From contig CAZQMZ010000004.1 of NCBI GenBank assembly GCA_964594865.1, positions 8,952 to 72,951 of the forward strand: a stretch of 64,000 nt of DNA. The letters run 5' to 3'. This document shows positions 21,993 to 41,332 of the stretch, piece by piece. The position numbers and the translations under genes are program-made. Origin of the DNA: an uncultured Lachnospiraceae bacterium (lineage in GTDB: Bacteria > Bacillota > Clostridia > Christensenellales > UBA1242). The notes beneath the pieces were generated by a model, which saw only the letters and a list, made by a program, of their open reading frames with translations, was not told the DNA's origin and did not search any database. The stretch's first letter is position 1. Each line of letters opens with the position of its first letter.

Positions 21993-22748
21993 TTACATGA
22001 AGAACAGAGAAATGACGGCAATGACGGCAAGATAATATGAAAACCATTTCAGGCTGGATTTAACAGTGAGCTTAACCATCAGTTTTATGGCAAAAATTCC
22101 TGTCAAAAAGGCTGTTATAAATGAAATTATGGTCGGCAAAATCGGCACACTCAAAACAACTTCACCTGTGACAACATCATAAATTTCCATTATAAGAGAA
22201 AGAAAAATGATTGGAATGGACATCAAAAATGAGAATTTGGCGACCTGATTTTTGTCTTTTCCACACACAAGTCCGGCACTTATTGTCGAACCAGAACGTG
22301 AAATGCCGGGAAAGACAGCAAACCCTTGCGCAACCCCCATCAAAAACGCTGTTTTATTGTCAAAAGTGTTGGATTTTTTATTTAATATTTCTGCAAGCAT
22401 CAATATGACCGCTGACAACGCAAAACAAAGTGGCAATGCCCCGCCCATGAAAGACAACTTGATGAGAGGCATAAACAAAAGAGCAATCACACAAGTTGGA
22501 ATGGTTGCGATGACAATTTGTATTGTTTCTTTGGAAAATGGATGCCTTATCATCTGCCAAACATCTTTATAATAGACAACACAAATGGAAAGCAAAGTGG
22601 CAACATGAAGCAAAATACTGACAAACAAACTCTCTTCAATTCCAAAAATTTTTGAAAAAAGCACCAAATGTCCAGAAGAAGAAACAGGAAGAAACTCTGT
22701 CAGTCCCTGAATCAAACCCAACAAAAATAAAGCAAGAGTGATGTTCAT
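21993..22748 (-). CDS. uppP: Undecaprenyl-diphosphate phosphatase (UppP/BacA)
   Basis: Motifs LIQGLTEFLPVSSSGHL and GISRSGSTI. Confidence 0.9.
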   Translation of the reverse strand: MNITLALFLLGLIQGLTEFLPVSSSGHLVLFSKIFGIEESLFVSILLHVATLLSICVVYYKDVWQMIRHPFSKETIQIVIATIPTCVIALLFMPLIKLSFMGGALPLCFALSAVILMLAEILNKKSNTFDNKTAFLMGVAQGFAVFPGISRSGSTISAGLVCGKDKNQVAKFSFLMSIPIIFLSLIMEIYDVVTGEVVLSVPILPTIISFITAFLTGIFAIKLMVKLTVKSSLKWFSYYLAVIAVISLFFM

Positions 22749-22813: not shown

Positions 22814-25800
22814 CTATCGTTTTGCCAATTCTTCACGTGCTTTCTTACGTCTTCGATTTATCCAAATTGAAACAACCAAGACGATGATCAAGAGAAGAAC
22901 GATTGCAATAATGAGGAAAATCCACCAAATGGATGACTCTCCACGTGTGATTGTGGCATAACTTGTCACAACTCCGAACAAGCCGTCATATCTTGTTTCA
23001 CTGTAAACTTGTGCAAGACTTATTCCCAGAATTGAATGGTTGTTGAAATTGAATGTTCCGCCGAAAGGATTTTCTTCCGTTCCGATTGGCGTCCAAAACT
23101 TTTCCGAAAGATTGAGATTGTTCATGACGATATATGCGCAGTCTCGGTATCTCAATCCGTTGGAACTGAATTCTCCGCTATTGACAAGTTTCATCATCAA
23201 AACCAAATCTTCAATCGTGTAAATTCGGAATGGATCGCTTGCAGTGCCACTTCCTTGGAAGACATCACTCACTTCAGTGTCTTCCCACATCAATCTTGTG
23301 AAGACGATGTATATGCTGATCGTGCCGGCTATGTCATTTGAATCAAGAAAATCTGCGCTGAGAGAAATCAATCCATCTGAATATTCCAAATCAATGATTT
23401 GCCCCATGCTGTTCAAATATACTCTGGACACTTGATACCTTGGATTTTCAACCACAGAAAATTCAATTGTTCCTTCACGTGCAACGTCGACCTGAGTGAC
23501 GGTTGAACGGTTGTATCTCACATATCCCGCAGCTTGAGCATTGTTGTTGTCGGTTGCATCCGAAAGTTCCTGATCCAACAATTGGAAGAAATAAACTGAC
23601 AAAATTTCATTGTTGAACTCTGGAATGATTTCAATGGTTGCAGAGCCTGTCGAAAATTCTGGCTTGACCGTGAATGTGAAATAATATAATCCATTTGAAT
23701 AATTGTTCAACACGATATCAAAGTTGTCTGTCAAATCGGAGCCTTCAGTCGAAACTACTTTCCATGTGACAGCATATCCAGATCTAATCATGACAGAAAT
23801 CGTCACCGTGTCTCCAACTGCAACGTCAACGCTTGTTCTGGTTTTGTTGAACGAACTTCCGCTGTAAGTTCCCAAGGTGTAATACGTCGTTGCACTGTTG
23901 ATGGTCGTTGTTTGTAAGCCTACAATCAGTCCGTTTGTGCTGTCATAACTTGAAAAGTCAAGAGTGACAGGCAAACCGGTTAGATACAGAAGCAACGTCA
24001 GTCGATTGTTTATCGTGTATGTTTGAGAAACATTTGTTGATGTTTGCAAAGTGGTTGCATTGACCCATCTTGAGAATGAATATCCTTCGCCAGGTATTGC
24101 TTGAATTGTGAAACTTGTTGTTGTGTCAACATATCCTTCTGAAAGAAGTTGTCTTGCTTGACTTGAATCTTCGACATCTTGCGTGATTGTGTATGTTGCA
24201 TCTCCGCCCATCAAATAAACATTCACTTCGGCAAAATAGACCACTTGCACAACGCATTCGACAATGTTGTCATATGAGTTTGTCGACCAAAGCAATCTGT
24301 TCGAATATGATGTGACATCTGAAAGCCAAGTGCCAGTGATTGTCTTTTGACTTATGACAAACTTATAGAATTTATATCCATCAATTTCCGGTGCAACAAA
24401 ATATATGTCATTATTGAAAGCCACTTCAATGTAATATGGTGATGAAGAATAGAACCACGAATTGCTTGAATCCACTCCACTGACCATATCTTGCGCTGTG
24501 ATGCCCGTGATGATGCTTGGAACAAAGTCAAAAGTGATGCGCGTTTTCAAATATGATTGATATAGATAGAGTGTAATTGTGAGATCTCCGTCTTGTCCGC
24601 TTGTGTTTTCCGTGAAGACATATTTTCCTGTGATTGAGTCGAGAGTATAACCGCTTTCCAACCATGCTCCTGTCACTTGCCCAAGCGAGTCGATGTATTG
24701 CACTCCCGCACCGTTTTGATATGTGAAATATCCTTCAAAATAATGTGTGGAAGATTCAATCACAAGGTTGAGCACATTGTTGACAAAGGAAATTCTGCTG
24801 TCCAAAATTTCAATGTTGTCTGAATTGCTGATTGAAAGGTCAAGTGTGGAATTGTATTTGACATTATAAATTCTCACAAGCACATTGCCATTTTCTTTCA
24901 ACTCAACAGTGTAAGTTTCTGGTGTCAAAACAATGTTTATAACCTGTAAATCGAGATAGCCCTTGACAACAAATGTGATTTTTCCTGTATAACCGGTGTC
25001 GGTTATTGAAAGATCTTCATAAGAAACATCAAACACCAAAACATCCAACAAATCGTTGCCTTCGGCATCGACAAATGTCGCGTTGTTGCCATAGAACCCT
25101 GCTTTGACGTATGCTGTCACAGTGAATTCGCTGTCTGTATATGCAACCACAGTGACAGAACTATATCCGTCGCCCGATGTCCAAACTTGTCTTGTTGTGG
25201 TGGAATAGGTCACATCAATTTTTCCGCCATTGACAACTTCTCCGTTATCGACAAAGGAAATTTCAATGACGTTTTGATTTGGTGTGTAAATCGCCGTGAT
25301 TTCAACCCCTGTCATTCCGCCAACAATTCCGCTGATGGCGTATATATAAAAGTCTTCACCGGTTGTGACCAAATCAATTTTTATGACATTTTCAAGATTG
25401 CTGATCAGTTTTTCAAAGACATAGCCATCGCGTGCTGTGGAAACTTTGATGTATATCACGTCGTTTGTGTAAGCAATCACTTGGAAATTCCTTGAAGATG
25501 TCCAAGTTCCATAGTGAACAGTGCTTCCAACAACATATCCATGATCATTGACATCACTTCCGTCACTTCCAACAAGAGTGAGTGAGCCAACAGAGTTGTC
25601 TTGCGAATAAGTTCCATTGATGTCAATTTGTGTGTTGAATTGGATGTATACAGATTGCGAAACGATGACAATATAGATGTTCTCTGCGGAAATCTGCCCC
25701 ATGTCAGAAGACCTTAAAGTCACGTCCACTGTTGTGGTTGAAGCTTGAGTGTTTTGTTCAATATATTCAAACCCTTCACCAGTTTCATAGCCATATCCAT

Positions 25801-28800
25801 AATATATATATCCTTCTGGCAACACAAAAGAAACTATCACGTTGACACCATAGGCAAGTGTAATGGATGTCACAGGGACATCGTCATAAAGAATTTCTGC
25901 TTCCGTCAAAGTGTAGACATCAACAAGATCGCCGTTTGCATTATAGACCTGACTGAAAATATATGTCGCAAGATTGATTTCATACTCACCTTCGGAAAAG
26001 ATTGCATAGATTGTTTCACTTTGAGAGATTTGATAGGTGAGCGGATTTTCTGTCTCCCACTGAGTTTCACCGTCCTTGCTCCATGTTGAAAATGTGCCAC
26101 GTGCCTCAATAGCACGAAGTTCAACATATTCTCCAAATGCAACTTCCAGTGTTGTGTAAGACGAATCTCCATACAAAATTTCCGCCGTGTTTCCGGACGA
26201 TTCAATTCGCTCTCCGTTTTCACCGTATGTGATCACCACCACAGTGATTGTGAACATTGTTGCTTTGGAGTTGATGTTAATCGTTCCGTCATTTTTGATG
26301 TCGGTCACGGTGAAGCGATAATATCCCGCCCAAGAACCTTCTTCAACAAGTTCACAAGTGATTGTGAAGCCCGTGTCACCTGCATCAAAATTGTCGAATT
26401 CATAGCCATATATATACGAAACATAGAATTGGAATGTGTTGCCAGTCAACACTTCAAATGTTGTTGTCGATTGATTAAAACCGCCAACAATCAATTGACT
26501 CACAACACTTGAATCGCTGAAATTTATCGTCACTGCATTTCTTCTTGCTTCTTCAACAACAGTGAACGATGTGTCTTGATTGATTCCGGAAATTTGCAAG
26601 GTCAAAATGTTTTCGTCTTCAATCTCGGTTATCAGCAAGCCTTCACTTCCAGAATATTGATAACTACTTACAACATAACCATCAATTAGAGTTATAACCA
26701 ATTTGATTGTCTTGCCTGTCGCAACAGTGAAAACCCCACCTGTTCCAGTAATTTCTTCTTCACCGTCGTCTGTCACATCATACATGACAACGCTTGCAAT
26801 GTTTGTTCCAGAAATTGTCACACTGTTTTCATTGGCGCTCACAGGAACAGTCACTTCGATGTCGCTTGCTGGCATTGTCAATGTCACAACGACATCATTG
26901 TTTTGATATACAGCTGAGAAATAGTTTCCGAAATCTCCCCAATTTGTCAAAAGTGTATAGCCCGTATTTGCACTGACAGTGAACGAAACGGTGGCATTAT
27001 ATTCCACAGTTGCGGTGTATGTGAAAGTTGCTTCGTCATATGTGAATGTCAAGTCGTCGCTGACAATTGTGCTGTTTGGAGAATAGATCGTCAAAGTGTA
27101 TGTTCGAATTCGCCAATATGCAACCAAAGTATGATCTTCTTCAGTTGAAACAATCGTCACAGAAGTCACAGGATCTCCATTCGAAAAAGTCCAATATACA
27201 AATTCGTATCCTTCACGTGTTGGAACAGGAAGATTGTCATAGCTTTGTCCAAAGGTCACTGTTATGTATGTCGTTTCGCACACTCCTTCATTTGCATTAA
27301 AATAGACCTTAACTTCTTTCGCTTCAAATTCTGGAGTCAATGTGATGTCGATGTATCTGGCATTCGTTGAAGAGTTTCCCAGAAGTGAAGTGAAATATGT
27401 GCTGGCAAAATCATCAATTAAAATTAAAGGTTCTCCAATATAAATTCCTGTGAAATCATAGCCATATCTTTTGATGTCAGCAAGCACTGAAAGTGTGTAA
27501 TTTTGAAGGTCAAAATAATTGACTGTCCACAAATATATGTTTTCAGTTGACGTCTGAGTGAAATTGCTGTTGTTTATATCTGCATCAGCGCAATCGGTCA
27601 AATCAAGATATATGTTGATTTGTTGAACATAAAATCTCACCGAAATGTCTGTGTCTTCTGTCAAAATTATTGTGATGACATAAGAATTTCCGTTGACTGT
27701 GACATTTGAGATTTCTGTTTGTCCATTGAAGAAACCATAATATGAATAATGATCATTTGCAGTTGCAACAATCTTGAAGGTTGTGCCATAAAGAAATTCG
27801 TTGTTTCCACTTAAATTAATTACTTCTTCAGATTCGTCATCATTTACGAGATAGACTGTCACCGTTCCACAAGCAGAATTGTCAGTGCCGTTTTCGTCTT
27901 GCACGGAAACAGTCAAAGAATAGGAATTTATCTCCCAATTTGCTGTGAAAGTGATTGAAAGATATCCGTCGTTGAAGTTGCTATCTTCGAGATAATAAAG
28001 TCCAAACAAATTGTTCTCATCTTCCAAAAGTGCCTTAATCAAGTTCACAGTCGACTCGTTGTTGGAAACAATGATGTTGTATGTGCCCTCCACAACTGAA
28101 AGAGAATATGTTGAAATCAAGTTATCCAAAAATGTCTGTTGAGTTGCGCTCAAGCTTTCAAAATTCATTGTCCAATAAAGGAAACGATATCCTTCACGTG
28201 TTGGAGATGTTGGAAAACTTGCTGAACTTGAAGAAGAATTGTCTGTCAAGGAAGATCTTGAAGTGAAAGGATAGGACAATTCGGACAAGAGATTGGAAAC
28301 TCCTGTCGAAACTTCTTCTCCAACTTCTGCGTTCAAATCAAATGTCACTTGAATTTCGACCGCCAAAATTGCCCCCAAAACATATGGTGAAATGGTGTAA
28401 TTCTCGGCATCAGTTCCATCAATAGTGAACGTCACAACAAGATTGGTTCCAGGAAGATGGGTGGAATAAGTAGCACCTGTCAACGAAACGATGTCGCCAT
28501 AAAGAATTCCTGAAACTGTGAGAAGGCCTATGCCTGTGACATCAGAATTTCCGTCATATTTTTTGGTGAAGATTGTCTGCAAATCTGTCACGCCGTCCGC
28601 TGCACTATACGTGAGTTCTTTTTGCAAAATCACCAAATTTGCAGGACTTTCTTGTCGAATGTTGTCCACCAAATATTCATTAATGAGAAAATCGCTTGCA
28701 CTATAGGTGAAACGCAATTCATATACTCCCACTTTCAAATTGCCAGAAGAAGAATAACTTGCGTTCAAAACTGAAATTGAGATTGAGACACTACTGTTTT

Positions 28801-34800: not shown

Positions 34801-37800
34801 TTGTTGTCAAGGTGAAATTGCTCTCCACAGTGTCGCTTGTCGGCGAGAACGAAACAGTGTTGTCACTCACATTCACTACAATTCCAGAAGAAGAATAATT
34901 GTCGACACTGAAATAGTCAGCAAGATAAATCGTGTGATCTGTTCCGTCATAAACCAAGCCCGAAATGGTGTTGCTCGACAAAGACAAGGAATAATATTCA
35001 CTCTCCACGCTCCACATTGCATAGAGTGTGAGAACCGGTGTGGTGACATCATTTCCAAAGGCAAAGGAGAGCAAACTGTTGTTGAAGACGGTGTCGTTTG
35101 AAACAACCACCATTGATTGTCCGCTGATCAAATACCACCCTTCAAAAACGAAGCCTTCACGCACCGGCGTTGGAAGTCCAGAGTTATTAAGAAGTGTGGC
35201 AAAAGTTTGGTCATAAGTCAAAGAATAGGTTTCGGTTTCATTGTAATTGTCTCCAACCGTGCCCCCGTTGGCGTTGAAAGTTATGTTGTATGTGTTTGCC
35301 GTCCACCTTGCATAAAGAGTCAACAGACTTGATGTGTTTGAATATGAATAAGTTTCAGTTGAATCGTATTGCCATTCGCGTGAAGCATTTGTATAGCCAG
35401 TCATGTTTTCCACCAACACACCATTGTCGTCGATGAGAATGTCATCTCCACCTTCTGTCAGCGTCCAGCCTATGAAGGTATAGCCATTTCTTGAAGGATT
35501 TGAGATGATTGACGACAGACTTGAAGAATCAAATGTGGCGACAGTGATCGTGCTTCCTGTTACGGTTGCGTTGGTGTTTGACAATGTGATTGAAGTGGTG
35601 CTGGCAGTCCAACGGATATAAAAATTCACGACAATATTTGTGCTGTCACCAATGAAATATGAAACATTTGTGGACAAGACCGTGTCTTCTGTCAAACTGC
35701 CAGAGCTGTTGCCCGTATTCCAATACCAATAGTTGTATAACGCTTTATAATAGCCCGTTCTGTATGTGAAAAGGTTGGACAAACTCTCGCTTTCACCTTC
35801 CGGAATGATGTCATCCAGCTCGATTGATAAGCCCGAATTGAAATAGAGTTTTTCTTCCAAATAATATGTCTCGTCAGTAGTTTTATTGCCCTCTGCATCG
35901 TAAACAGTGCCACCTTTTCCGTCACCATAATCTGAAGAAGAGCCCGTTCCGGAATAAAATTCAAAAGTGATTGTTTTTTGCTTCAAGATTGGAACAACAT
36001 AGACCGACCCTGCGCAAACACCATCCAAAATTGTGCTCTCTTCCATATCTTCTTGAATTTCGGTTAACCAACCTGAAATTGAAAGAGTGATTGTTCCGTC
36101 ATTCGCAAAGACTTCATTTCCATTTGCGAAAGAGCTTTCATACAACACATTCCCTTCGCTGTGTCCGTCGCTTGAATAGACGCGATAACCCACCGCATAA
36201 TATCCATTCGCATAACTTCCACTCAAGTACATGGTGAGCGTGTCATCTTGAAAAGAAGTGCTGGATGAGTATGTATACGTGCCGGCGTTCATCGAAACAG
36301 AAAGTCCGCTGCTTGCCGTCGTCCGATTTGTTTCACCGTTTCCGTTATAGTCATCCACATCAATCCATGCTGACGAAGTGTCGACTGTCACGGTGACTTG
36401 CTTTTTGACATAAATGGCATAGGCATCCACCGAAAATTGCATTGTGTATAAGCCAGAGCCTGCCGTTGCTGCAACTCCATAGAGAGAACTGAAAGAATAT
36501 TCTCCATTTGAAACGAAGCGATAATATGGTGTCACGCCGTCTAAATCATCCGAACTGCGAACAAACCAGCCCAACAAATAATAGCCATTATCACTTGTTG
36601 ACGAACTCAAATTTACAGTGTCACCATATCTGACTTCGGTCAAATCTCTGTCCGAAACCTCCACCAAGGAAACAGTTGTGGTGACATCATCGCTTGTTTC
36701 TCCAGTCCCACTGTTGCTGTTAAGATACTCCAAAAGACTTGAAGAATTATAAATTGTGCCGTTTTGTGAAATCAAATTTTCCTGTGAAAGACTTGAATAA
36801 TCATAATATCTTGTGCTGAAATTTATTGAATAGTCAATTTCTTCGCAATAAATGATGATTGTATAGCGTCCATTTGCCAAAGAATTAGAGTAATTGAGTG
36901 TGATGTAGTGCGTCAAATAACTTGCACTTGTTCCGGGATATACATAATAAAGGTTGTTCAAAGTTATGTATGTATCCAAGTTGTCTTCAAAAGTCCCCAT
37001 ATAATTCGTGTCTTCTTCTCCCTCACTGTTCAACACACCTATGACAGAAAATCTTATATTTCCGCCTGCGCCAAAGCTAAATTCACTACTGCTATCGGCA
37101 GAAAACTTATAATATTCCGTCGCTTCAACAGAGAAAGAAATTGTGCCAGCCTCTCCTGTTGCAACACTCTGTGAAGATGTTTCATCAGAGAAATATGCCG
37201 TTGGAGAATAAGATGCAATCGTGTTTCCGTTCTTATCAACAACAGACAATTCAAACATTGCCATGGTATATTCAGTGACGACGCTGAGTGAACCAGTTGC
37301 GGAAGTTGTTTTGTAAACACCAGCAAATTCCATTAAAAGTTTGTTTTGATATTCAGATGTTAGTTCTGAAGTGCCAATAGAGCTTGAATCTAACCCTGTT
37401 GGACTATTGAGATAACTTCGTGTGAAGCTGAGAGACTCGCTTTCAGTTGAAAAGAGCATAACGAAAGAGGTGAGAGAAGTGTATGTGAATGTTCCGTTCC
37501 ACGTTGAATTGTCAGTCGATGACACTGTGAGTTCCAAAAGTTGAGTTTGTGTTGACGAATCCAAACTTTCTCCCAAATCAGTGAGAGTGATGGTTGTTCC
37601 AGTGCCCGTAATGCATTGGAAAAGATAATAGTTATATTGTTGATCGCCGAGAGTGTATCTCACATATACATTTGTGAGACCGTTGTTAAACACCCCACTG
37701 ATAAAATATTCTGAAACCGAGAAGATGAAAGTGTGGTTCAAGAAATCGTATGCAACATAACAATCATTCGATTCTAGCAAAAGGTTTAAAACATATTCAT

Positions 37801-40800
37801 ATTCGTTTTCTGCATTCCCGTTTCCATCAACCCAGCCAAGAACATAAAGAATGTCAGTCCAAGTTATTGCTCCCTCTCCAGCACGAACTTCCAAATTTGA
37901 AGAATAAACCCCATTTTCTGATGAAATGGAAAAGGTCTGAATTGGAGAAATGCCAAAATAGACATTGTTGGAAAAGGTTATATTATCTGTGTAAACATCT
38001 CTTTCGATTTCAATTGTCGTTGAATATTGTCCAACCAAATGACAATAGGAAGCATATGCGGTTTTATTGTAATCTTTAACACCTGAAGACCCTTGACACA
38101 CACCAAAATTCGAATCACCGCCACTGACAAGAGTCAAAGCAGGAGAGCTTGTGAAAGAATAGCCATCCTTAAGCGTAATCTCAAATTCGATATAATCACT
38201 CTCTGTGGCACTATACAAAGTGTAATAATTAATTTGAATGCTTCCGTTTTCAATGGCAGAACCGCTCCATTGTTTTCCAGCACCTTCAACAACAGTACCG
38301 TTGACATAGCACTTCATTGTGATTGTGTCAACTATATTTGAAAAGTCTTCACCGTCTTCCGTTGTGAAATTTATGGTCACATAATTTCCGTCCTTTTCAG
38401 TCCCTTGCCATTGGGCGTAAACAACGGCAATATATTCATCATTCTCGCTGCTGACTCCCGTGATATTTTCCGTGACGTATCCACTATAACTCCAAGAACT
38501 TGTTAGATATTCATCTTCGTATAAACCGCTGATTTCAAAATTGCCCTCTCGCAAGGCAGTCAGCGAACTAGAAGAGTTGTAATAATACGGAATTTCGAAA
38601 ATATAACCATAGTCAGATATATTGGATGCATATGGCAAAAAGTAATCAATATAAACTTTGTTTCCGTCAATCTTGAATGTCGACCCTGTGATGATGTTTC
38701 CATCGCTGTCATACACTTGTCTGTCAAGATAAGAGGCGCTTGCGTTGCTTGTGGCACTGAAATTGTTGATCTCATAGATGTTGTAAACCACACGAACAAT
38801 GATGTCTGTTTCTTCCCAAACTGCGTTTAACCCAGAGATTGCCTTTTCAAGATTTGATGACAAATCGTCAACATCACTCTCGTCTTGATACGTGTATCCA
38901 GTGAGCATATATCCTTCTTTAACCACGATGTCATAATTTTCAAGCCCTTCGCTCAAATTTTTAGGCAAAACTGTGACACCGAAAGTGCTGTCGATTCCGC
39001 TGACATCAAGCACTGTCCCGTTTCCATTGACAAGAACGTGATATTCGCCCAAATATACATCGGAAGTTGAAAGTGTCAAATCTTCGGCGCTTTTTCTATA
39101 AAAAACTCCGCCGTCGCCATTTATTGTGATGTCATAAGCCGTGTTAAATGAACCGTCAACTGTGATTGAGTTTTCATCGATTTCGCCATCTGCTGTCAAA
39201 TTGTTCTTGCCATAAACGACATAGACTGATGTTGAAACTACTGTGATTGATTTGACATAACCGTCAGCGCTTCCAACATCAACAACTTCGGAATCATCAC
39301 GGCAATTGATTATGTATGTATAATCGCTAGCGGCTGCCACAATTGTGCCGAAATATGTTGTCGAAGAACCGGTTTCTGTCCCAACATATCTCACGTCAGA
39401 CAAAATCAAATTTTTGATGACAGCATTTTCTGTTTTTGCAAAAAGTCCATAATAGGTGTAATTCATCTGCAAAGAGCAAGTCAACCCACTTATTGTGTGA
39501 TTGTTTCCGTCAAAAACTCCATTAAATGCCGTGCTAAGACCGATTGGAGTCCAAGTGCGTCCCGCAAGGTCGATGTCATTTTGAAGAGAGAAATAATATA
39601 ATGTTTCAAGCGAAGTGCTGTTCGCATACAACATCGAAACATACACCAAATCTCCAGCTGTTTTGATCAAATATGGCGACGAAGCCGTACCTTCGCCTTC
39701 CAACAGCAAACTTGAATCGTTGTCAGCGTTTCCAGAAATTGAAATATAAGGAAGGCTGTCATTCACGCTGGAACTTATTTTCCAAATCGAAGAAAAGTTC
39801 CAAGTCCCCGATGATCCCCAATTTCCGCTGTATGTATAAAAATCTTTTGTGCGAGCCAAAGTTTCCAAGCCTGTCAAATTTGTGGTTGTTGTGTTGTCAA
39901 TTGTTGATTCATAATACACACAAGTTTGTGAAAGAGTGGCTGAGCCGTAGTTTCCACAAATCTCTCCCGCGTTAACACTTGTCCCAGAGTTTGTTGAAAT
40001 TGTGGAAATCGCAAAACTGTTGTGAATATATGCATTACTCGACGTTTCCCCAATCAATCCACCAATGTTGACATAGCTTCCCCAAGAGCTGATGGTTCCG
40101 GAAAAATAAACATGATTAAATTCAACCTCGACTTCTGAACTTCCAACCAATCCGCCGATTGACACACCATCCGATGGCTCATTGTCTGCCCCATTTTGGA
40201 TTGTGCAAACACTATATGAATCTGTCATACTGAATTCTATGTTTGATGAACTGCTTGACCCCGACAACGAAGCCAAACCCACAATTCCGCCCACATAAGA
40301 AGAGCTCGAACTCTTTATTTCTCCAGAAGTGTAACACATGTAAATCTTTCCTTGAAAATTTCCAACAAGTCCGCCCACAGCTGTGGCACCTGTGGCAGAA
40401 ATGTTTACATCTGTCATACATTCTTGCAAATTATCCTGGGAATCGTTTGTGCTTGAGCTTACTCTAAACATCCCGACCAAACCACCAACATAAGTCGATG
40501 ACTCTGTGGAAATTTCTCCTTGCACAGTGCAGTTTGAAATTATTCCACTTCTGTTTGTTGTTGTGCTGAATGCACCAGCAAGCCCGCCAACATATGTGGC
40601 TGACGCAGTCACGTTAAGATTTCTCAAATGTAAATTAGAAATTGTTGCATTTGAACCGAGATTGCCAAAGAAACCCACATAACCGTTGTTCGCTTGATTA
40701 ATGTTTAAGTTATAGACATAATATCCATTGCCATTAAATGTCCCAGAAAAACCGTTTGAGCCACCAATTGGCATCCAACTTTCGCTGTTCCAATCTATGT

Positions 40801-41110
40801 CACTCATCAAATAGATCTGCCAGCTATTGAATGTTTGTGATGAACCATTCACCTGATTGGCAAAATATGCCAAGCCTTTTGCGGTGTATATGTAAACGGT
40901 GGAGCCTACAGAATAATAATCTGCACCTGTGACAGTCAAAGTGTTGTTAGAATCGACATACAATCCATCTCCATTTAAACTTCCTGTCCAAACACTTGCA
41001 TCCGTGCTTGTTGCTTCAACAGAAAGAGAAGAGGCAAAAGTCAGACTTCCAAATGCCCCACAAAAACCAAAAATCATCATAAACAAGAGAGACCAAACTT
41101 TTTTTCTCAT
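22814..41110 (-). CDS. Giant (~6,098 aa) secreted, C-terminally membrane-anchored mosaic surface protein/adhesin (GLUG + InlB-B/Flg_new-like + MBG/YDG-like modules)
   Basis: One uninterrupted 18.3-kb ORF. Start set to the ATG at 41110 behind AGGAG; the track start at 41116 is GTG. It has a signal peptide, GLUG motifs, W-anchored InlB-B-type repeats, YDG/TYG beta-grasp-type repeats, and a terminal TM helix plus RRRKK tail. See sub-features and findings. Confidence 0.9.
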   Translation of the reverse strand: MRKKVWSLLFMMIFGFCGAFGSLTFASSLSVEATSTDASVWTGSLNGDGLYVDSNNTLTVTGADYYSVGSTVYIYTAKGLAYFANQVNGSSQTFNSWQIYLMSDIDWNSESWMPIGGSNGFSGTFNGNGYYVYNLNINQANNGYVGFFGNLGSNATISNLHLRNLNVTASATYVGGLAGAFSTTTNRSGIISNCTVQGEISTESSTYVGGLVGMFRVSSSTNDSQDNLQECMTDVNISATGATAVGGLVGNFQGKIYMCYTSGEIKSSSSSYVGGIVGLASLSGSSSSSNIEFSMTDSYSVCTIQNGADNEPSDGVSIGGLVGSSEVEVEFNHVYFSGTISSWGSYVNIGGLIGETSSNAYIHNSFAISTISTNSGTSVNAGEICGNYGSATLSQTCVYYESTIDNTTTTNLTGLETLARTKDFYTYSGNWGSSGTWNFSSIWKISSSVNDSLPYISISGNADNDSSLLLEGEGTASSPYLIKTAGDLVYVSMLYANSTSLETLYYFSLQNDIDLAGRTWTPIGLSTAFNGVFDGNNHTISGLTCSLQMNYTYYGLFAKTENAVIKNLILSDVRYVGTETGSSTTYFGTIVAAASDYTYIINCRDDSEVVDVGSADGYVKSITVVSTSVYVVYGKNNLTADGEIDENSITVDGSFNTAYDITINGDGGVFYRKSAEDLTLSTSDVYLGEYHVLVNGNGTVLDVSGIDSTFGVTVLPKNLSEGLENYDIVVKEGYMLTGYTYQDESDVDDLSSNLEKAISGLNAVWEETDIIVRVVYNIYEINNFSATSNASASYLDRQVYDSDGNIITGSTFKIDGNKVYIDYFLPYASNISDYGYIFEIPYYYNSSSSLTALREGNFEISGLYEDEYLTSSWSYSGYVTENITGVSSENDEYIAVVYAQWQGTEKDGNYVTINFTTEDGEDFSNIVDTITMKCYVNGTVVEGAGKQWSGSAIENGSIQINYYTLYSATESDYIEFEITLKDGYSFTSSPALTLVSGGDSNFGVCQGSSGVKDYNKTAYASYCHLVGQYSTTIEIERDVYTDNITFSNNVYFGISPIQTFSISSENGVYSSNLEVRAGEGAITWTDILYVLGWVDGNGNAENEYEYVLNLLLESNDCYVAYDFLNHTFIFSVSEYFISGVFNNGLTNVYVRYTLGDQQYNYYLFQCITGTGTTITLTDLGESLDSSTQTQLLELTVSSTDNSTWNGTFTYTSLTSFVMLFSTESESLSFTRSYLNSPTGLDSSSIGTSELTSEYQNKLLMEFAGVYKTTSATGSLSVVTEYTMAMFELSVVDKNGNTIASYSPTAYFSDETSSQSVATGEAGTISFSVEATEYYKFSADSSSEFSFGAGGNIRFSVIGVLNSEGEEDTNYMGTFEDNLDTYITLNNLYYVYPGTSASYLTHYITLNYSNSLANGRYTIIIYCEEIDYSINFSTRYYDYSSLSQENLISQNGTIYNSSSLLEYLNSNSGTGETSDDVTTTVSLVEVSDRDLTEVRYGDTVNLSSSTSDNGYYLLGWFVRSSDDLDGVTPYYRFVSNGEYSFSSLYGVAATAGSGLYTMQFSVDAYAIYVKKQVTVTVDTSSAWIDVDDYNGNGETNRTTASSGLSVSMNAGTYTYSSSTSFQDDTLTMYLSGSYANGYYAVGYRVYSSDGHSEGNVLYESSFANGNEVFANDGTITLSISGWLTEIQEDMEESTILDGVCAGSVYVVPILKQKTITFEFYSGTGSSSDYGDGKGGTVYDAEGNKTTDETYYLEEKLYFNSGLSIELDDIIPEGESESLSNLFTYRTGYYKALYNYWYWNTGNSSGSLTEDTVLSTNVSYFIGDSTNIVVNFYIRWTASTTSITLSNTNATVTGSTITVATFDSSSLSSIISNPSRNGYTFIGWTLTEGGDDILIDDNGVLVENMTGYTNASREWQYDSTETYSYSNTSSLLTLYARWTANTYNITFNANGGTVGDNYNETETYSLTYDQTFATLLNNSGLPTPVREGFVFEGWYLISGQSMVVVSNDTVFNNSLLSFAFGNDVTTPVLTLYAMWSVESEYYSLSLSSNTISGLVYDGTDHTIYLADYFSVDNYSSSGIVVNVSDNTVSFSPTSDTVESNFTLTTIGNAVIDNSFQSFTVRNAGTYSLTFTYTITDTATYMNVGTVFSVSITIYVTVSKASLTLSLEDLSDSVLSSIYVSNIKRIMQPFLDASINSTLSSVNSLEGLYNFAVNTLGEEIISSLSGDELYLATYKYLMTKYYLLMDTNDGDEVRTYKEWTYGDYIEFIEAEENAEIVQEIEENTIFFAYYDFSNSSASVYLDSYYSLGSITGVNSSEIITISNIVISTSLDGISLSARGSYSIRLYLSYSSLLDNYDVSSSGSTYYIIMDGVMGYIFPQILTVENLETYVYYSSDYEDSTRQIAWVGSDQSEIVYGDIYYSVGNSLYVYAELFTSNGGQYGADTVFTFTDFKNYLFFSDVSVLYQYTSNDIVYYSDITNRFKLITSSSFTIKRVDDVALVTLSMKYLTITDSVQTYEDLTSAGINFETVGVQGIYYDLEDDSGEIYLNLSESDLDTVIVGDVTLLQILSQANGQLSLYVNKLVTEVVFNTTKMVGDYIGLYKWIQGEFTETGVDGTMESSANLTLIMLWDDDEDTVERSDTSQYIAVTVEDNGDEMAYVELDAIYTDLVRVNFSYNYPVSYTPVGSIEYTFIKLGETTIDDFTYPSELNFGTAVLTVNGVAFEDLFTGSDGEYVGYYSNIFSPIYADVRWHTELTITLSQFMYYYYNTISSVTQLYYTDIFTLYNTNTTLYEYSFTWYKLNENTDEYELLTSGESYTFANGGMVDDSGSYRIVVTATMKSEYVDCFDDSTVKVVTRNVDFDVEFMRLQITGLEVGDIVSGTYSNSDYIYSWSVEASMQIWDRNSDSYSEEAGTLEINYLENDYATIEIYLNNQLVTSMTDVGEYEIRLIFNSEVFDVSGSLQLSGISYNSQEDYYYFAFTITPLEIDLQDYDLDSSKVFNGVETSLDKTIYITQTYESITIYLTRESGEDVGDYDIFLSSTIAQNSNYIFKYGETTLYDENGLTSAGQTTAVGTFTITASSTLRLSFDEQVVSAAFLTGGYTVKLTNDLELVITGADDSQITLELTLYDLNTGDIIEGETLSILKQHLSEVTAYFFQTEQLSTAVNAGTYTFQFGVGTFSKYYSSVDMQSIYQFVINQIEIDVSNLALSKVYDGTNTDTIDVAEYDGLQIYDGLQIVATYESSHVGTWGVTLRLYASSDSSLNVNNFKLSTSNLTGTITKLSATLTLKVSQDEFTYGTISTANFENYVSIDSVVDGENNDVLSLLTSGYYTMQYSLSLSSPGSVGSNANGFIYAGEYIISGEGSWFNDFEMTIKSAEFEVTALPVTALIPENYVTQIVGSAIASYYTLDQTVTATGDELTIYLQVVDDDGDPLTDGDTTGQYDFALDSTNTNTNNICVSNGSVIVVVPEDNNGFYIVDDTSAILYITLKDEDLLSIVYDGESHTITATLTAGGTPTLSIDNKTVELEFTDQNGSTVNDVSLEAFSVFYGSSTTTFKNAGSYLLSLSASATGYVAVVFITSYYFEIEKATITTSDITFSKTYDATTIMTVSEYSNGSSIGLEDDDVSIYVRFTDANVGTGKTITLSVIGDDAVNYQLDYTTLSTGEITYATATINLSETTFTYGDLIYSNGTLTGIANYITVTSGSSTISTSYYSLQITIYDSSNALPTTSSLGYVYAGTYTIEISNIMSGSNYSITKYEGQITINPYTFNVTFETDGQISVEYGTTLNGTDVPYTATSPLYENVDLTLTRNSSSTEIGYYRITNGEYSSTNYIVTVIDSSDNGAFAITSVQGQILYVLVEGSEDDEFSTMTMEYDGNEYTNIQLMYDNSEGKWQIVLYTADWNSSVSFSLAFYTLSNGVYTAYSSSAVVQGLSATLTFASTGKDVGSYYIYASGASSTTHDVRMGKSGGIYAFVLEITPRNLYFAESTITNAFNNAEAVYQYSASSGVVSGIVDSDVTVEVKFWDGDSLAIYVGTGYTVTAELQGNGTSNYKLNLSTENGGSLSGSITMAMITVVINTQYYTYGSFNIDYITWSYEADFDVEQYISENSSVSISISVLNASYSSSGNLKVGVYELRFTYSASDFLINEYLVDNIRQESPANLVILQKELTYSAADGVTDLQTIFTKKYDGNSDVTGIGLLTVSGILYGDIVSLTGATYSTHLPGTNLVVTFTIDGTDAENYTISPYVLGAILAVEIQVTFDLNAEVGEEVSTGVSNLLSELSYPFTSRSSLTDNSSSSSASFPTSPTREGYRFLYWTMNFESLSATQQTFLDNLISTYSLSVVEGTYNIIVSNNESTVNLIKALLEDENNLFGLYYLEDSNFNDGYLSITFTANWEINSYSLTVSVQDENGTDNSACGTVTVYLVNDDESEEVINLSGNNEFLYGTTFKIVATANDHYSYYGFFNGQTEISNVTVNGNSYVITIILTEDTDISVRFYVQQINIYLDLTDCADADINNSNFTQTSTENIYLWTVNYFDLQNYTLSVLADIKRYGYDFTGIYIGEPLILIDDFASTYFTSLLGNSSTNARYIDITLTPEFEAKEVKVYFNANEGVCETTYITVTFGQSYDNLPVPTREGYEFVYWTFSNGDPVTSVTIVSTEEDHTLVAYWRIRTYTLTIYSPNSTIVSDDLTFTYDEATFTYTATVEYNATVSFTVSANTGYTLLTNWGDFGNYFSAVYQNNDVVVTLTMPASDIEVTVPVSANENSVTISGTNIASVVMYDVTDDGEEEITGTGGVFTVATGKTIKLVITLIDGYVVSSYQYSGSEGLLITEIEDENILTLQISGINQDTSFTVVEEARRNAVTINFSDSSVVSQLIVGGFNQSTTTFEVLTGNTFQFYVSYIYGYEFDNFDAGDTGFTITCELVEEGSWAGYYRFTVTDIKNDGTININSKATMFTITVVVITYGENGERIESSGNTAEILYGDSSYTTLEVAFGEYVELRAIEARGTFSTWSKDGETQWETENPLTYQISQSETIYAIFSEGEYEINLATYIFSQVYNANGDLVDVYTLTEAEILYDDVPVTSITLAYGVNVIVSFVLPEGYIYYGYGYETGEGFEYIEQNTQASTTTVDVTLRSSDMGQISAENIYIVIVSQSVYIQFNTQIDINGTYSQDNSVGSLTLVGSDGSDVNDHGYVVGSTVHYGTWTSSRNFQVIAYTNDVIYIKVSTARDGYVFEKLISNLENVIKIDLVTTGEDFYIYAISGIVGGMTGVEITAIYTPNQNVIEISFVDNGEVVNGGKIDVTYSTTTRQVWTSGDGYSSVTVVAYTDSEFTVTAYVKAGFYGNNATFVDAEGNDLLDVLVFDVSYEDLSITDTGYTGKITFVVKGYLDLQVINIVLTPETYTVELKENGNVLVRIYNVKYNSTLDLSISNSDNIEILDSRISFVNNVLNLVIESSTHYFEGYFTYQNGAGVQYIDSLGQVTGAWLESGYTLDSITGKYVFTENTSGQDGDLTITLYLYQSYLKTRITFDFVPSIITGITAQDMVSGVDSSNSWFYSSSPYYIEVAFNNDIYFVAPEIDGYKFYKFVISQKTITGTWLSDVTSYSNRLLWSTNSYDNIVECVVQVVYFAEVNVYLMGGDATYTITQDVEDSSQARQLLSEGYVDTTTSFTIQAIPGEGYSFSRWVNATTLQTSTNVSQTYTINNRLTLLLYLTGLPVTLDFSSYDSTNGLIVGLQTTTINSATTYYTLGTYSGSSFNKTRTSVDVAVGDTVTISVMIRSGYAVTWKVVSTEGSDLTDNFDIVLNNYSNGLYYFTFTVKPEFSTGSATIEIIPEFNNEILSVYFFQLLDQELSDATDNNNAQAAGYVRYNRSTVTQVDVAREGTIEFSVVENPRYQVSRVYLNSMGQIIDLEYSDGLISLSADFLDSNDIAGTISIYIVFTRLMWEDTEVSDVFQGSGTASDPFRIYTIEDLVLMMKLVNSGEFSSNGLRYRDCAYIVMNNLNLSEKFWTPIGTEENPFGGTFNFNNHSILGISLAQVYSETRYDGLFGVVTSYATITRGESSIWWIFLIIAIVLLLIIVLVVSIWINRRRKKAREELAKR
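22859..22930 (-). other. C-terminal transmembrane anchor of the giant protein
   Basis: IWWIFLIIAIVLLLIIVLVVSIWI followed by NRRRKKAREELAKR-stop. There is no LPXTG-like sortase signal. Confidence 0.8.
28420..34970 (-). other. Array of MBG/YDG-type beta-grasp-like modules in the giant protein (approximate limits)
   Basis: Recurrent xGxY-x-[IL] cores: NAGTYSLTF, DSGSYRIVV, DVGEYEIRL, DVGDYDIFL, NAGTYTFQF, YAGEYIISG, NAGSYLLSL, YAGTYTIEI, DVGSYYIYA, KVGVYELRF. These occur with YDG/TYG motifs: LVYDGTDHT, KVYDGTNTD, KTYDATT, KKYDGNSD, FTYGT, FTYGDL, YTYGSF. Confidence 0.55.
31412..31447. repeat. 18-bp in-frame tandem duplication inside the giant gene
   Basis: AATTTGCAAGCCGTCATA / AATTTGCAAACCGTCATA, with 1 mismatch. 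Encodes YDGLQI-YDGLQI. Confidence 0.9.
35005..35500 (-). other. Two canonical Listeria-Bacteroides (Flg_new / InlB B-type) repeats in the giant protein (approximate limits)
   Basis: NGYTFIGWTL...LTLYARW and REGFVFEGWYL...LTLYAMW. More divergent copies occur upstream and downstream (REGYRFLYWTM at ~28170-28200, REGYEFVYWTF at ~27186-27220). Confidence 0.6.
40049..40594 (-). other. GLUG-motif beta-helix-like region of the giant protein (six motifs)
   Basis: YVGGLAG, YVGGLVG, AVGGLVG, YVGGIVG, SIGGLVG and NIGGLIG at roughly 35-40 aa spacing. Coordinates were checked against the DNA for the first motif. Confidence 0.7.
41033..41110 (-). other. Signal peptide of the giant protein
   Basis: MRKKVWSLLFMMIFGFCGAFGSLTFA: a basic n-region, a hydrophobic core and A-x-A-like ends (TFA/SS, VEA/TS). 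Confidence 0.75.
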
Positions 41111-41144
41111 TCCCACTCCTGTCCAGTGTCTTTTGTATAGTTTG

Positions 41145-41174
41145 ATTGTAGCATTTTTCTCACAAAAAAATCAA
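41145..41174 (-). promoter_or_regulatory. Candidate sigma-A promoter of the giant gene
   Basis: On the minus strand: TTGATT, 18 nt, TGcTACAAT (extended -10, 41153-45). Predicts a leader of about 28 nt ending in AGGAG-N5-ATG. Confidence 0.45.
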
Positions 41175-41284
41175 ACAAAATTGCGCAGTGTTTGCACATT
41201 TATTATATATAATATAATAAAAAATAAACGAAACAAAAATGTTTATAAACCAAGGATTTACTTGTCTGAAGTAGAGAAATCATT

Positions 41285-41332
41285 GAGTTTAAAATAAAAA
41301 AATAAAGAAATGCCGAGTTTAAAATAAAAAAA
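41285..41332. repeat. 18-bp perfect direct repeat, two copies 30 bp apart
   Basis: GAGTTTAAAATAAAAAAA at 41285-41302 and 41315-41332, between the trpS terminator and the giant-gene promoter. Confidence 0.8.

What the first reader, a model, noticed from the sequence alone, without database searches (positions are those of the whole stretch)
22814..41110. A single 18.3-kb ORF encodes a ~6,100-aa mosaic surface protein
**Seen in the sequence.**
- One uninterrupted reading frame covers about 29% of the window in an AT-rich genome, where random frames close within tens of codons.
- It begins with SD + ATG and a signal peptide (MRKKVWSLLFMMIFGFCGAFGSLTFA).
- It carries six GLUG-type motifs (YVGGLAG ... 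NIGGLIG).
- Two further cap-like modules are present: GTASSPYLIKTAGDL..DIDLAGRTWTPIG..FNGVFDGNNHTISGL near residue 475, and GTASDPFRIYTIEDL..FWTPIGTEENPFGGTFNFNNHSILG just before the C-terminus.
- Many W-anchored InlB-B/Flg_new-like repeats occur (GYTFIGWTL..LYARW, EGFVFEGWYL..LYAMW, EGYRFLYWTM, EGYEFVYWTF..LVAYW, plus dozens of divergent GY-x-F/L copies).
- A central run holds at least 17 xGxY beta-grasp-like modules with YDG or TYG motifs.
- The composition is heavily S/T/Y/N/D/E/V and poor in K/R.

**Established.** These module types build giant adhesins and fibrils in Firmicutes.

**Inference.** This is a very large cell-surface fibril or adhesin, probably the main host- or substrate-contact structure of the organism. 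Its size is near the upper range known for bacterial proteins, and no characterised orthologue comes to mind.
Basis: partly seen in the sequence, partly recalled or inferred. Interest (0 to 1): 0.7.

Follow-up and report, generated by a model that had tools for sequence, protein, structure and literature searches.

The report
Conserved fixed-length giant surface fibre protein
The 18.3-kb reading frame is a real gene for a 6,098-residue, membrane-anchored cell-surface fibre of an uncultured Clostridia bacterium, and it belongs to an unnamed family whose members keep almost the same length and domain order while their sequences diverge about ten times faster than neighbouring housekeeping genes.

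Summary
The ORF is real. It lies on the minus strand, from the ATG at 41110 to the stop at 22814-22816, and encodes 6,098 aa (671 kDa, pI about 4).

- **Anatomy.** It has a Sec signal peptide and an N-terminal GLUG beta-helix head that resembles the IgA1-protease N-domain but has no protease site. A second cap follows, then a stalk estimated at roughly 55 beta domains (four Flg_new and two YDG above Pfam cut-offs, the rest unassigned). A third cap, one C-terminal transmembrane helix and a conserved basic tail end the protein. There is no LPXTG motif.
- **Family.** It is not a one-off. At least 29 other cluster representatives are collinear relatives of 5,819-6,326 aa (length CV 2.1%). None has an indel of 40 aa or more, at 30-55% identity.
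- **Locus.** In all five relatives inspected the gene follows TrpRS in a BipA-DnaB-GluRS-TrpRS housekeeping locus.
- **Rate.** Against the nearest MAG its dN is 0.39, versus about 0.04 for neighbours; dN/dS is about 0.24.

The best reading is a tail-anchored fibrillar surface protein whose distal head makes contact. The ligand and expression are untested.

This is a new member of a known kind with an unusual fixed-length pattern.

The parts
41145..41174 (-). Promoter-like site (TTGATT, 18 nt spacer, TG-TACAAT) about 30 nt upstream of the start codon
   Evidence: Consensus scan only. Its function was not shown.
41116..41120 (-). Shine-Dalgarno sequence AGGAG, 5 nt before the ATG
   Evidence: Read directly from the sequence.
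22814..41110 (-). Coding sequence of the giant protein: 6,098 codons plus the stop at 22814-22816
   Evidence: Collinear orthologues of 5,819-6,326 aa. dN/dS is about 0.24.
41033..41110 (-). Signal peptide, residues 1-26 (MRKKVWSLLFMMIFGFCGAFGSLTFA)
   Evidence: It is one of only two hydrophobic segments. The same type of N-terminus is seen in the family members with an intact N-terminus.
39911..40954 (-). Head: first cap plus a right-handed beta-helix with six GLUG turns, residues about 53-400
   Evidence: Pfam Glug 40.9 bits, above the 20.5 cut-off. Six motifs. The AlphaFold2 (AF2) model has mostly pLDDT 80-97 here. The best PDB fold matches are 3n6z and the IgA1 protease N-domain.
39284..39730 (-). 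Second cap / short beta-helix, residues 461-609 (GTASSPYLIKTAGDL...WTPIG...FNGVFDGNNHTISGL)
   Evidence: hhalign probability 99.3% against cap 1. Confidently modelled. It is among the best conserved segments, with conservation 0.59.
35633..39283 (-). Distal stalk, residues 610-1826: the most variable part of the family, with no Pfam family above cut-off
   Evidence: Conservation is 0.28-0.45 and most small indels fall here. Pfam gives only a CopC hit exactly at its cut-off (23.3 bits), which I regard as an incidental hit on a beta-rich stretch.
35084..35632 (-). Two Flg_new (Listeria-Bacteroides repeat) domains, residues 1827-1899 and 1929-2009
   Evidence: Pfam Flg_new 44.4 bits with two stretches. 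TIGR02543 36.8 bits. My own HMM.
31679..35083 (-). Middle stalk, residues 2010-3144, unassigned except for a weak MBG_2 hit near residues 3013-3054
28331..31678 (-). Central region with three copies of a roughly 390-aa super-repeat (residues 3145-3535, 3538-3925, 3928-4260) containing YDG/MBG-type modules
   Evidence: hhalign with the family profile gives probabilities of 97-99% between copies. Pfam YDG passes its cut-off at residues 3585-3657 (35.3 bits) and 4180-4241 (34.8 bits). Outside the family, only these modules find relatives.
28127..28390 (-). Flg_new domain, residues 4241-4328
   Evidence: My own HMM, 74.9 bits. Pfam Flg_new 22.9 bits, below the cut-off.
27149..27349 (-). Flg_new domain, residues 4588-4654
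   Evidence: Pfam Flg_new 37.2 bits, above the 27 cut-off. My own HMM.
23288..27148 (-). Membrane-proximal stalk, residues 4655-5941: tandem beta-sandwich (Ig-like) and divergent InlB-B-repeat-like domains of roughly 95 aa
   Evidence: AF2 model of residues 4900-6098 is all-beta, mean pLDDT 71. Foldseek matches Ig-domain arrays, SpyCEP and Gram-positive pilins. Flg_new_2 scores 22.7 bits, just below its cut-off. Units of roughly 95 aa are seen.
24011..24913 (-). Most conserved stretch of the whole family, residues 5400-5700 (FEGYFTYQNGAGVQYI...SYLKTRI.F.FVP...SGVD..NSWFY...GYKFYKFVISQK)
   Evidence: Conservation is 0.59-0.71. Invariant residues are listed. There is no Pfam match.
22931..23287 (-). 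Third cap-like module, residues 5942-6060 (GTASDPFRIYTIEDL...FWTPIGT...FGGTFNFNNHSILG), directly before the membrane
   Evidence: hhalign probability 98-99% against caps 1 and 2. FWTPIG..F.G.F.F is invariant in the family.
22859..22930 (-). C-terminal transmembrane helix, residues 6061-6084
   Evidence: Hydropathy. AF2 models a helix here. It is present in all 29 full-length relatives.
22817..22858 (-). Basic cytoplasmic tail NRRRKKAREELAKR, residues 6085-6098
   Evidence: A polybasic tail is present in every full-length member, and most follow the pattern (R/K)KRKKxREEL(A/S)K(K/R).

Best explanation
The gene encodes a type-I, tail-anchored giant surface fibre.

**Shown.**
- The protein has an N-terminal signal peptide and exactly one further hydrophobic segment. 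That segment is a C-terminal TM helix followed by a conserved polybasic tail. About 6,030 residues therefore lie outside the membrane and the protein stays attached by its C-terminus.
- The membrane-distal N-terminus is a GLUG beta-helix followed by a second, shorter cap.
- The modelled 1,040 residues next to the membrane are a string of Ig-like beta-sandwich domains.
- The middle holds Flg_new and YDG stalk modules.
- The protein belongs to a family with nearly constant length and domain order. The family evolves about ten times faster than housekeeping neighbours but remains under purifying selection. Variability is greatest in the distal third and least next to the membrane.

**Inferred.**
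- The roughly 5,300 stalk residues form about 55 domains of about 95 aa. If extended, that is a fibre on the order of 200 nm.
- The fibre holds the beta-helix head, the likely ligand-contact part, beyond the wall and any outer layers.
- The conserved proximal 700 residues lie in or at the cell wall.
- The exposed distal part diversifies under outside pressure from phage, host or competitors.

The ligand is unknown.
For: **ORF and start.**

**Topology.** There are only two hydrophobic segments and no LPxTG motif in the C-terminal 300 residues (where a sortase signal would lie) of any of 30 members. The conserved TM helix and tail are seen.

**Head.**
- Pfam Glug scores 40.9 bits.
- 597 GLUG-protein homologues were found.
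- The AF2 model has pLDDT 76 and pTM 0.70.
- Foldseek matches 3n6z at E=1.7e-5 and the IgA1 protease 6xja at E=1e-3.

**Stalk.**
- Flg_new and YDG pass Pfam cut-offs and TIGR02543 matches.
- Both are treated as stalk domains of fibrillar adhesins (bioRxiv 10.1101/2021.12.07.471604).
- AF2 gives all-beta tandem domains that match Ig arrays and pilins.

**Family.**
- There are 30 full-length members of 5,819-6,326 aa, length CV 2.1%, at 30-55% identity.
- No indel reaches 40 aa.
- Synteny after TrpRS holds in all five relatives inspected.

**Rates and gradient.**
- dN is 0.39 against 0.04-0.06 for neighbours, and dN/dS is about 0.24.
- Identity to the nearest MAG is 54%, against 91-94% for housekeeping neighbours.
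- The distal-variable, proximal-conserved gradient is shown.
Against: - There is no evidence of transcription or of the protein itself.
- No known adhesive domain was found, and the function of GLUG beta-helices is itself unknown.
- About 80% of the length has no Pfam match, and only residues 28-700 and 4900-6098 were modelled. The domain count and fibre length are therefore extrapolations.
- Constant length, core-like presence and a housekeeping neighbourhood are not typical of adhesins, whose repeat numbers usually vary. These features fit a structural envelope role at least as well.
- Whether the organism has a thick wall, an S-layer or a capsule is unknown.
Confidence: 0.6

Rival explanations
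1. It is an envelope spacer or shield rather than an adhesin. As proposed for Ebh of Staphylococcus aureus, a giant C-terminally membrane-anchored protein forms a fixed-thickness coat. That coat supports envelope integrity or sterically keeps phage, host proteins or other cells at a distance. Its length, not a ligand, would be the selected property.
For: - The topology matches Ebh: a signal peptide, a C-terminal TM helix and a basic tail (Ebh description in PMC4856396).
- Length is held within CV 2.1% and no domain is gained or lost over divergence down to 30% identity.
- The gene was present at the same housekeeping locus in every one of the five related contigs inspected that reached that far.
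- No known adhesive domain was found.
Against: - The conserved beta-helix head and second cap (conservation 0.53-0.59) suggest a specific distal function.
- The domain types differ from Ebh: no FIVAR, GA or DUF1542 hits appear.
- No phenotype data exist.
- This reading does not exclude adhesion.
Confidence: 0.25
2. It is an enzyme presented on a stalk. The beta-helix head would be catalytic, acting as an IgA1-protease-like peptidase or as a polysaccharide lyase or depolymerase like phage tailspikes.
For: - The head's best fold matches are the N-terminal domains of IgA1 proteases.
- Weaker matches are to PL6 alginate lyases and tailspikes.
- There is a sub-threshold Pfam Peptidase_M26_N hit.
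Against: - There is no HExxH motif anywhere in 6,098 residues.
- Peptidase_M26_N scores 16-20 bits against a cut-off of 27.7 and covers only the profile's C-terminal end.
- The matched part of IgA1 proteases lies in the N-terminal region (Pfam Peptidase_M26_N), not the catalytic domain.
- Lyase and tailspike matches have E of 2.6e-3 or worse and TM-scores of 0.2 or below.
Confidence: 0.07
3. It is an assembly artefact, fused genes or a decaying pseudogene.
For: Short-read (Logan) contigs from the same study break inside the gene, at window positions 40356 and 25113. There is no expression evidence.
Against: - There are no near-identical internal repeats that could collapse or expand.
- The frame is uninterrupted, while the other frames carry 224-398 stops.
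- 29 other full-length collinear proteins come from independent NCBI, ENA, JGI and Logan assemblies.
- dN/dS of about 0.24 holds along the whole length.
Confidence: 0.01

Closest known systems
Fibrillar adhesins / FA-like proteins of Firmicutes (class defined by Monzon and Bateman; bioRxiv 10.1101/2021.12.07.471604)
   Same: - Very long secreted protein.
- Rod-like stalk of tandem beta domains that includes the recognised stalk families Flg_new and YDG.
- A distinct N-terminal region distal to the anchor.
- Biased S/T-rich composition and fast evolution.
   Different: - No known adhesive domain.
- The anchor is a TM helix, not a sortase motif.
- Stalk domains are all different from one another (36% identity or less).
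- Their number is fixed across the family rather than variable.
GLUG motif-containing proteins (Pfam PF07581), including the N-terminal beta-helix of M26 IgA1 proteases (PDB 3n6z, 6xja)
   Same: - The head has the cap motif (G.GT...PY.I...DL...W.PIG..F.G.FDGN.HTI) followed by GLUG turns.
- It is predicted to be a right-handed beta-helix.
- It matches these structures best.
   Different: - No M26 catalytic domain and no HExxH motif.
- The head is under 10% of the protein.
- The second and third caps are not followed by detectable GLUG turns.
- The homologues listed are about 500-1,100 aa long.
Ebh (giant staphylococcal surface protein, about 1.1 MDa)
   Same: - Giant size and a signal peptide.
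[quoted passage not shown]
- Proposed steric and envelope role.
   Different: - From my own knowledge, Ebh is built of alpha-helical FIVAR-GA and DUF1542 repeats that are similar to each other. Here the domains are beta-rich and all different.
- No sequence relationship was found.
Periscope proteins (surface proteins with highly identical tandem repeats and variable length; mentioned)
   Same: A surface stalk that projects a distal functional region.
   Different: This is the opposite behaviour. There are no highly identical repeats, length CV is 2.1%, and no domain-sized indel occurs in 30 lineages.
Internalin-type proteins with the InlB B-repeat / Listeria-Bacteroides repeat (Flg_new, TIGR02543)
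   Same: Four clear Flg_new domains and several divergent InlB-B-like domains.
   Different: No LRR domain was found, and no GW or LPXTG anchoring. Flg_new makes up only about 5% of the length.

Membership tests
Fibrillar adhesin (FA-like) class | Large secreted protein with a rod-like stalk of tandem stalk domains | tested here: met
   Signal peptide. Flg_new and YDG pass Pfam cut-offs. AF2 shows tandem beta-sandwich domains.
Fibrillar adhesin (FA-like) class | A recognised adhesive domain | tested here: not met
   No Pfam adhesive family was found in any segment. The head is a GLUG beta-helix of unknown function.
Fibrillar adhesin (FA-like) class | Cell-surface anchor | tested here: met
   A C-terminal TM helix plus basic tail. 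This is a membrane anchor, not a wall anchor.
Sortase-anchored (LPXTG) surface proteins | LPXTG-type motif followed by a hydrophobic segment and a basic tail at the C-terminus | tested here: not met
   There is no LPxTG in the last 300 residues of any of 30 members. The only LPxT[GASN] strings lie at residues 3380, 3723 and 4219, far from the C-terminus.
GLUG motif-containing proteins (PF07581) | Pfam Glug score above the gathering cut-off, with repeated GLUG turns | tested here: met
   40.9 bits against 20.5, with two stretches, when residues 1-340 are scanned. The 1,000-aa segment scored only 18.9 bits. Six motifs. Homologues carry PF07581.
GLUG motif-containing proteins (PF07581) | Right-handed beta-helix fold as in 3n6z / IgA1 protease N-domain | tested here: met
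   The AF2 model has pLDDT 80-97 over the helix. Foldseek matches 3n6z at E=1.7e-5 (probability 1.00) and 6xja at E=1e-3.
M26 IgA1-specific metalloendopeptidases | Peptidase_M26_N above its cut-off | tested here: not met
   16.2-19.7 bits against a cut-off of 27.7. Only profile positions 192-250 of 250 are matched.
M26 IgA1-specific metalloendopeptidases | Zinc-binding HExxH catalytic motif / M26 C-terminal domain | tested here: not met
   No HExxH in the protein and no Peptidase_M26_C hit.
Periscope proteins | Highly identical tandem repeats and strain-to-strain length variation | tested here: not met
   The best internal identity over stretches of 40 aa or more is about 42%, and 36% or less over domain-sized stretches. 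Family length CV is 2.1% and the largest indel is 35 aa.
Ebh-type giant membrane-anchored proteins | Signal peptide plus a C-terminal TM anchor in a giant protein | tested here: met
Ebh-type giant membrane-anchored proteins | FIVAR / GA / DUF1542 helical repeats | tested here: not met
   None was reported by Pfam in any segment. The models are all-beta.
Listeria-Bacteroides repeat proteins (Flg_new PF09479 / TIGR02543) | Repeat above the curated cut-off | tested here: met
   PF09479 scores 44.4 and 37.2 bits against 27. TIGR02543 scores 36.8 and 28.1 bits against 20.95. My own HMM finds four copies.
YDG / MBG beta-grasp-type stalk modules (PF18657, PF18676) | Domain above the Pfam cut-off | tested here: met
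   YDG scores 35.3 bits (residues 3585-3657) and 34.8 bits (residues 4180-4241) against 25. MBG_2 reaches only 16-18 bits against 25. The fold of these modules was not modelled.

The most novel reading that the evidence does not exclude
The family is not an adjustable adhesin but a molecular ruler or coat.

- It would be a core, single-copy envelope component of a whole uncultured Clostridia lineage.
- Each of its roughly 55 different domains would have its own orthologue in every species.
- Its total length would be selected to set a defined distance or layer thickness outside the membrane.
- The conserved membrane-proximal 5400-5700 module would dock to the wall.
- The conserved cytoplasmic RKRKKxREELAK tail would engage an intracellular partner.

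The exposed surface would evolve about ten times faster than the proteome while the architecture stays frozen.
Probability: 0.15. Interest if true: 0.7.

Novelty: new member of a known kind. Interest (0 to 1): 0.42.

Why it matters
Giant surface proteins are common in gut Firmicutes, but they are usually treated as strain-variable, repeat-expanding adhesins. This one defines an unnamed family of at least 30 clusters at 50% identity.

- About 18 kb of coding sequence is kept intact, and roughly 55 non-identical domains keep the same order.
- The length stays within 2% and the chromosomal position is the same across a clade, one of whose species recurs in hundreds of assembly blocks.
- Meanwhile the sequence diverges to 30% identity.

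That pattern implies a strong and so far unexplained selective value for the whole architecture. If the protein is expressed, it is probably the outermost feature of these cells. It would then be relevant to how an uncultured gut lineage meets host, phage and neighbours.

The family also supplies about 5,000 residues of beta-domain sequence that no Pfam model covers, which could be used to build new domain families.

Tried and rejected
1. **Whole-protein self-BLAST** gave only the trivial hit. Fragment BLAST and two rounds of sliced hhalign were needed. hhalign in self-comparison mode returned nothing.
2. **The search for homologous proteins:**
   - 4,990 aa timed out.
   - Residues 3150-4150 found nothing. 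All 120 hits listed for the head are 1,136 aa or shorter. That index therefore seems not to reach giant proteins, and its negative result carries no weight.
3. **First genome-contig scan** with exact peptides of the head found no relative. The window's own genome is apparently not among the species representatives.
4. **PDB sequence searches** of the whole protein in two pieces, and of a profile of the four YDG-like modules, found nothing significant.
5. **My own HMM iteration** from internal repeats did not expand any module family beyond 2-4 copies. I could therefore not support "dozens" of Flg_new or "17" YDG-like modules.
6. **Exact look-up of the giant** in the protein collection found that this exact sequence is absent.
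7. **Sample identifiers** (SRP141132, SRR7039260, SAMEA7076291 and others) occur in no searchable paper. The habitat remains unknown.
8. **Taxonomy** could not be refined beyond "Clostridia bacterium" and "uncultured Lachnospiraceae bacterium".
9. **Readings rejected:**
   - IgA protease: no HExxH motif.
   - Sortase substrate: no LPXTG motif.
   - Lipoprotein: the FGFC sequence does not fit a lipobox.
   - The CopC, SusF_SusE, Stevor and Peptidase_M23 hits are sub-threshold or compositional.
Full report
**1. The observation**

A single frame is open on the minus strand from 41116 to the stop at 22814-22816. The five other frames of the same 18.3 kb hold 224-398 stops, with a longest open run of 161 codons. 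The frame is therefore far beyond chance in a window whose G+C runs from 34 to 42%, about 39-41% across the gene itself.

The listed GTG overlaps the ribosome-binding site. The ATG at 41110 follows AGGAG (41120-41116) by 5 nt. Every intact orthologue starts MK/MR-K-K at the equivalent place.

The quoted signal peptide, the six GLUG motifs (residues 174-349), the two extra cap modules and the composition are all as described. A sigma-70-like site with an extended -10 element lies about 30 nt upstream. No terminator-like site separates the gene from the downstream uppP homologue.

**2. It is a real gene, not an artefact**

- Near-identical repeats, the usual cause of collapse or expansion, are absent. 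The best internal matches are 29-36% identical.
- Short-read contigs from runs SRR7039260 and SRR7039262 match the window at both gene ends at 100% and 99.3% identity, although they break inside the gene.
- A related MAG (GCA_964400145.1, titled "uncultured Lachnospiraceae bacterium") carries a 6,068-aa gene in the same place, directly after TrpRS. The two proteins align end to end at 54% identity, and the largest indel is 10 aa.
- Neighbouring BipA, GluRS, TrpRS and DnaB are 91-94% identical between the two genomes.
- Nei-Gojobori estimates give dN = 0.39 for the giant against 0.04-0.06 for those neighbours. With dS near saturation (about 1.0-1.7), dN/dS is about 0.24 along the whole length. 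The gene evolves roughly ten times faster at the protein level and is still under purifying selection.

**3. A family**

A full HMMER scan of 1.84 billion cluster representatives with residues 3101-4300 found 30 proteins that match collinearly at the equivalent position. Twenty-eight of them are 5,819-6,326 aa long, and the two shorter ones are truncated fragments.

- With the window protein and one further cluster member, the 30 full-length sequences have a median length of 6,121 aa and a length CV of 2.1%. They are 30-55% identical to the window protein over 5,300-5,865 aligned residues.
- No relative has an indel of 40 aa or more against the window protein; the largest is 35 aa. No whole domain has been gained or lost. 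This rests on a MAFFT alignment, which can split long gaps, so it should be read together with the narrow length range.
- None of these proteins carries a name in any source.
- BipA proteins that are 86-91% identical to the window's are abundant in MAG collections and are labelled at most "Clostridia bacterium".
- In all three of the BipA relatives I looked up, the order BipA, small ORF, DnaB, two small unannotated proteins, GluRS, TrpRS, giant recurs. One of these relatives is listed in 315 blocks of the collection. Wherever the contig reaches far enough, the giant is 5,962 or 6,090 aa.

**4. Anatomy**

*Head.* Residues 1-340 pass Pfam Glug (40.9 bits against 20.5). 597 homologues of residues 1-650 are GLUG-motif proteins, at best 32% identical across most of the query, or up to about 40% over short stretches. 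An AlphaFold2 (AF2) model of residues 28-700 built with 69 of those homologues has mean pLDDT 76 and pTM 0.70. It shows a beta-helix through the GLUG turns and a second, well-predicted cap.

Its best PDB matches are 3n6z (a Bacteroides "putative IgA1 protease" beta-helix, E = 1.7e-5) and the N-domains of streptococcal and Gemella IgA1 proteases. Lyases and tailspikes follow only weakly. There is no HExxH motif in the protein, and Peptidase_M26_N stays below its cut-off.

*Stalk.*
- Pfam recognises Flg_new at residues about 1827-2009 (two copies) and 4588-4654. My own HMM adds a fourth copy at 4241-4328. YDG passes its cut-off at 3585-3657 and 4180-4241.
- MBG_2, Flg_new_2 and Big_15 stay below their cut-offs and CopC sits exactly on its cut-off. 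NCBIfam finds only TIGR02543.
- Profile-profile comparison with the family alignment shows three caps (residues 67-194, 477-603, 5956-6054; 98-99% probability). It also shows a roughly 390-aa super-repeat present three times between residues 3145 and 4260, and units of roughly 95 aa around 4700-4960.
- About 80% of the length matches no Pfam model, and there is no PDB sequence match.
- An AF2 model of residues 4900-6098 built with 12 family members is all-beta up to the C-terminal cap (mean pLDDT 71; low pTM, as expected for beads on a string). It ends in a long helix over the hydrophobic segment. Its PDB matches are arrays of Ig-like domains such as the SpyCEP C-terminal domains, contactin and Gram-positive pilins.

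*Anchor.* The only hydrophobic segments are the signal peptide and residues 6061-6084. The latter is followed by NRRRKKAREELAKR. A polybasic tail follows in every full-length member, in most of them as (R/K)KRKKxREEL(A/S)K(K/R), and none has LPxTG.

*Conservation.* Conservation rises from the distal stalk (0.28-0.45 for residues 600-1800) to the membrane-proximal part. It peaks at residues 5500-5600 (0.71) and is 0.62 at the C-terminus. The second cap is also well conserved, at 0.59.

**5. How it most likely works**

*Shown.* This is a Sec-type exported protein retained by a single C-terminal TM helix. It has a beta-helix head at the far end and beta-domain chains in the parts examined.

*Inferred.*
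- Roughly 5,300 stalk residues at about 95 aa per domain give about 55 domains. At a typical 3.5-4.5 nm per Ig-like domain (my own knowledge), that is a fibre on the order of 200 nm.
- The head is the contact part.
- The conserved proximal region sits within the wall.
- The exposed distal part diversifies.

I put 0.6 on this fibre-with-contact-head reading. The main rival, at 0.25, is that length itself is the function, giving an Ebh-like spacer or shield. The frozen architecture and the constant housekeeping locus fit that reading well, and the two readings are not exclusive. An enzymatic head is unlikely (0.07). An artefact is excluded as far as sequence can tell (0.01).

**6. Comparison with what is known**

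The protein works like a fibrillar adhesin. That class is defined by large size, a stalk of repeating domains, a distal functional region and an anchor, and both Flg_new and YDG are treated as stalk families (bioRxiv 10.1101/2021.12.07.471604).

- It meets the size, stalk and anchor criteria but has no recognised adhesive domain.
- It is a member of the GLUG-motif and Listeria-Bacteroides-repeat protein groups by their Pfam and NCBIfam criteria.
- It is not an M26 protease, not a sortase substrate and not a periscope protein.
- It shares only topology with Ebh, which is about 1.1 MDa and C-terminally membrane-anchored (PMC4856396).
- Its size is unremarkable at the upper end: predicted bacterial proteins reach 85,804 aa (bioRxiv 10.1101/2023.11.21.568195).

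**7. Verdict**

I rate it a new member of a known kind. What lifts it above the ordinary is the family behaviour. It consists of about 55 mutually dissimilar domains kept one-for-one at constant length and constant locus across lineages whose giant proteins have fallen to 30% identity. Interest is 0.42.

Noticed in passing
window 22814-41110 (compared with family members P0131-P0160 and P0213): Lys+Arg make up only 3.5% of the window protein and 3.7-4.1% of its five nearest relatives, but 6-8.5% of the other 24 family members. This is a lineage-specific loss of basic residues. It might reduce trypsin-type cleavage sites, which is speculation.
   Followed up: partly
window 44344-45858 (-) and 45873-46721 (-): Two unannotated genes lie between DnaB and GluRS. 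One encodes a 504-aa protein with a lipoprotein-type signal (…LVGC) and the other a 282-aa protein with an N-terminal TM segment. Neither has a Pfam hit. They keep their position in every related locus. They are only 59% and 65% identical to the nearest MAG, where housekeeping neighbours are 91-94%, so they are fast-evolving envelope proteins like the giant.
   Followed up: partly
L006:1-9038, L008:1-9038, L009:1-9060, L010:1-9060, L011:1-9038 (not in the window): Related lineages carry a second very large gene (3,641-3,762 aa, no Pfam hit) just upstream of BipA. The window has a metallophosphoesterase, a tRNA and FeoB there instead. Only one cap-like stretch of 88 aa resembles the 6,098-aa protein.
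   Followed up: partly
L007:1-9689: One strain of the prevalent related species has a phage-like insert upstream of BipA instead. It carries bAvd plus a reverse transcriptase (the pairing typical of diversity-generating retroelements), a DUF6273 protein, a phage-tail C-terminal domain and an integrase.
   Followed up: no
window 40356 and 25113: Short-read contigs from SRR7039260 end inside the giant gene at these two positions, although they are otherwise 100% identical to the window. Strain variation or low coverage within the gene is possible.
   Followed up: no
window 21993-22748 (-): An undecaprenyl-diphosphatase (BacA/UppP) gene follows the giant gene after 65 nt, with no terminator-like site between them. 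Co-transcription with a cell-wall lipid-carrier recycling enzyme is possible.
   Followed up: no
window 41240-41402 (-): The TrpRS-giant intergenic region holds an imperfect inverted repeat followed by a T run (AAAACGCAAA...TTTTTGCGTTTTTTT), seen by eye. It is probably the TrpRS terminator. The region also holds a direct duplication of 'TTTTTATTTTAAACTC'.
   Followed up: no
window 15433-16568 (+), 55619-56392 (-), 8838-10370 (-): By my reading of the translations, the window holds SpmA/SpmB-like spore-maturation proteins and a sporulation-type sigma factor. A Polysacc_synt/MurJ-like flippase gives a Pfam hit. This suggests an endospore-forming Clostridia organism, which fits a single-membrane, thick-walled envelope.
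   Followed up: no
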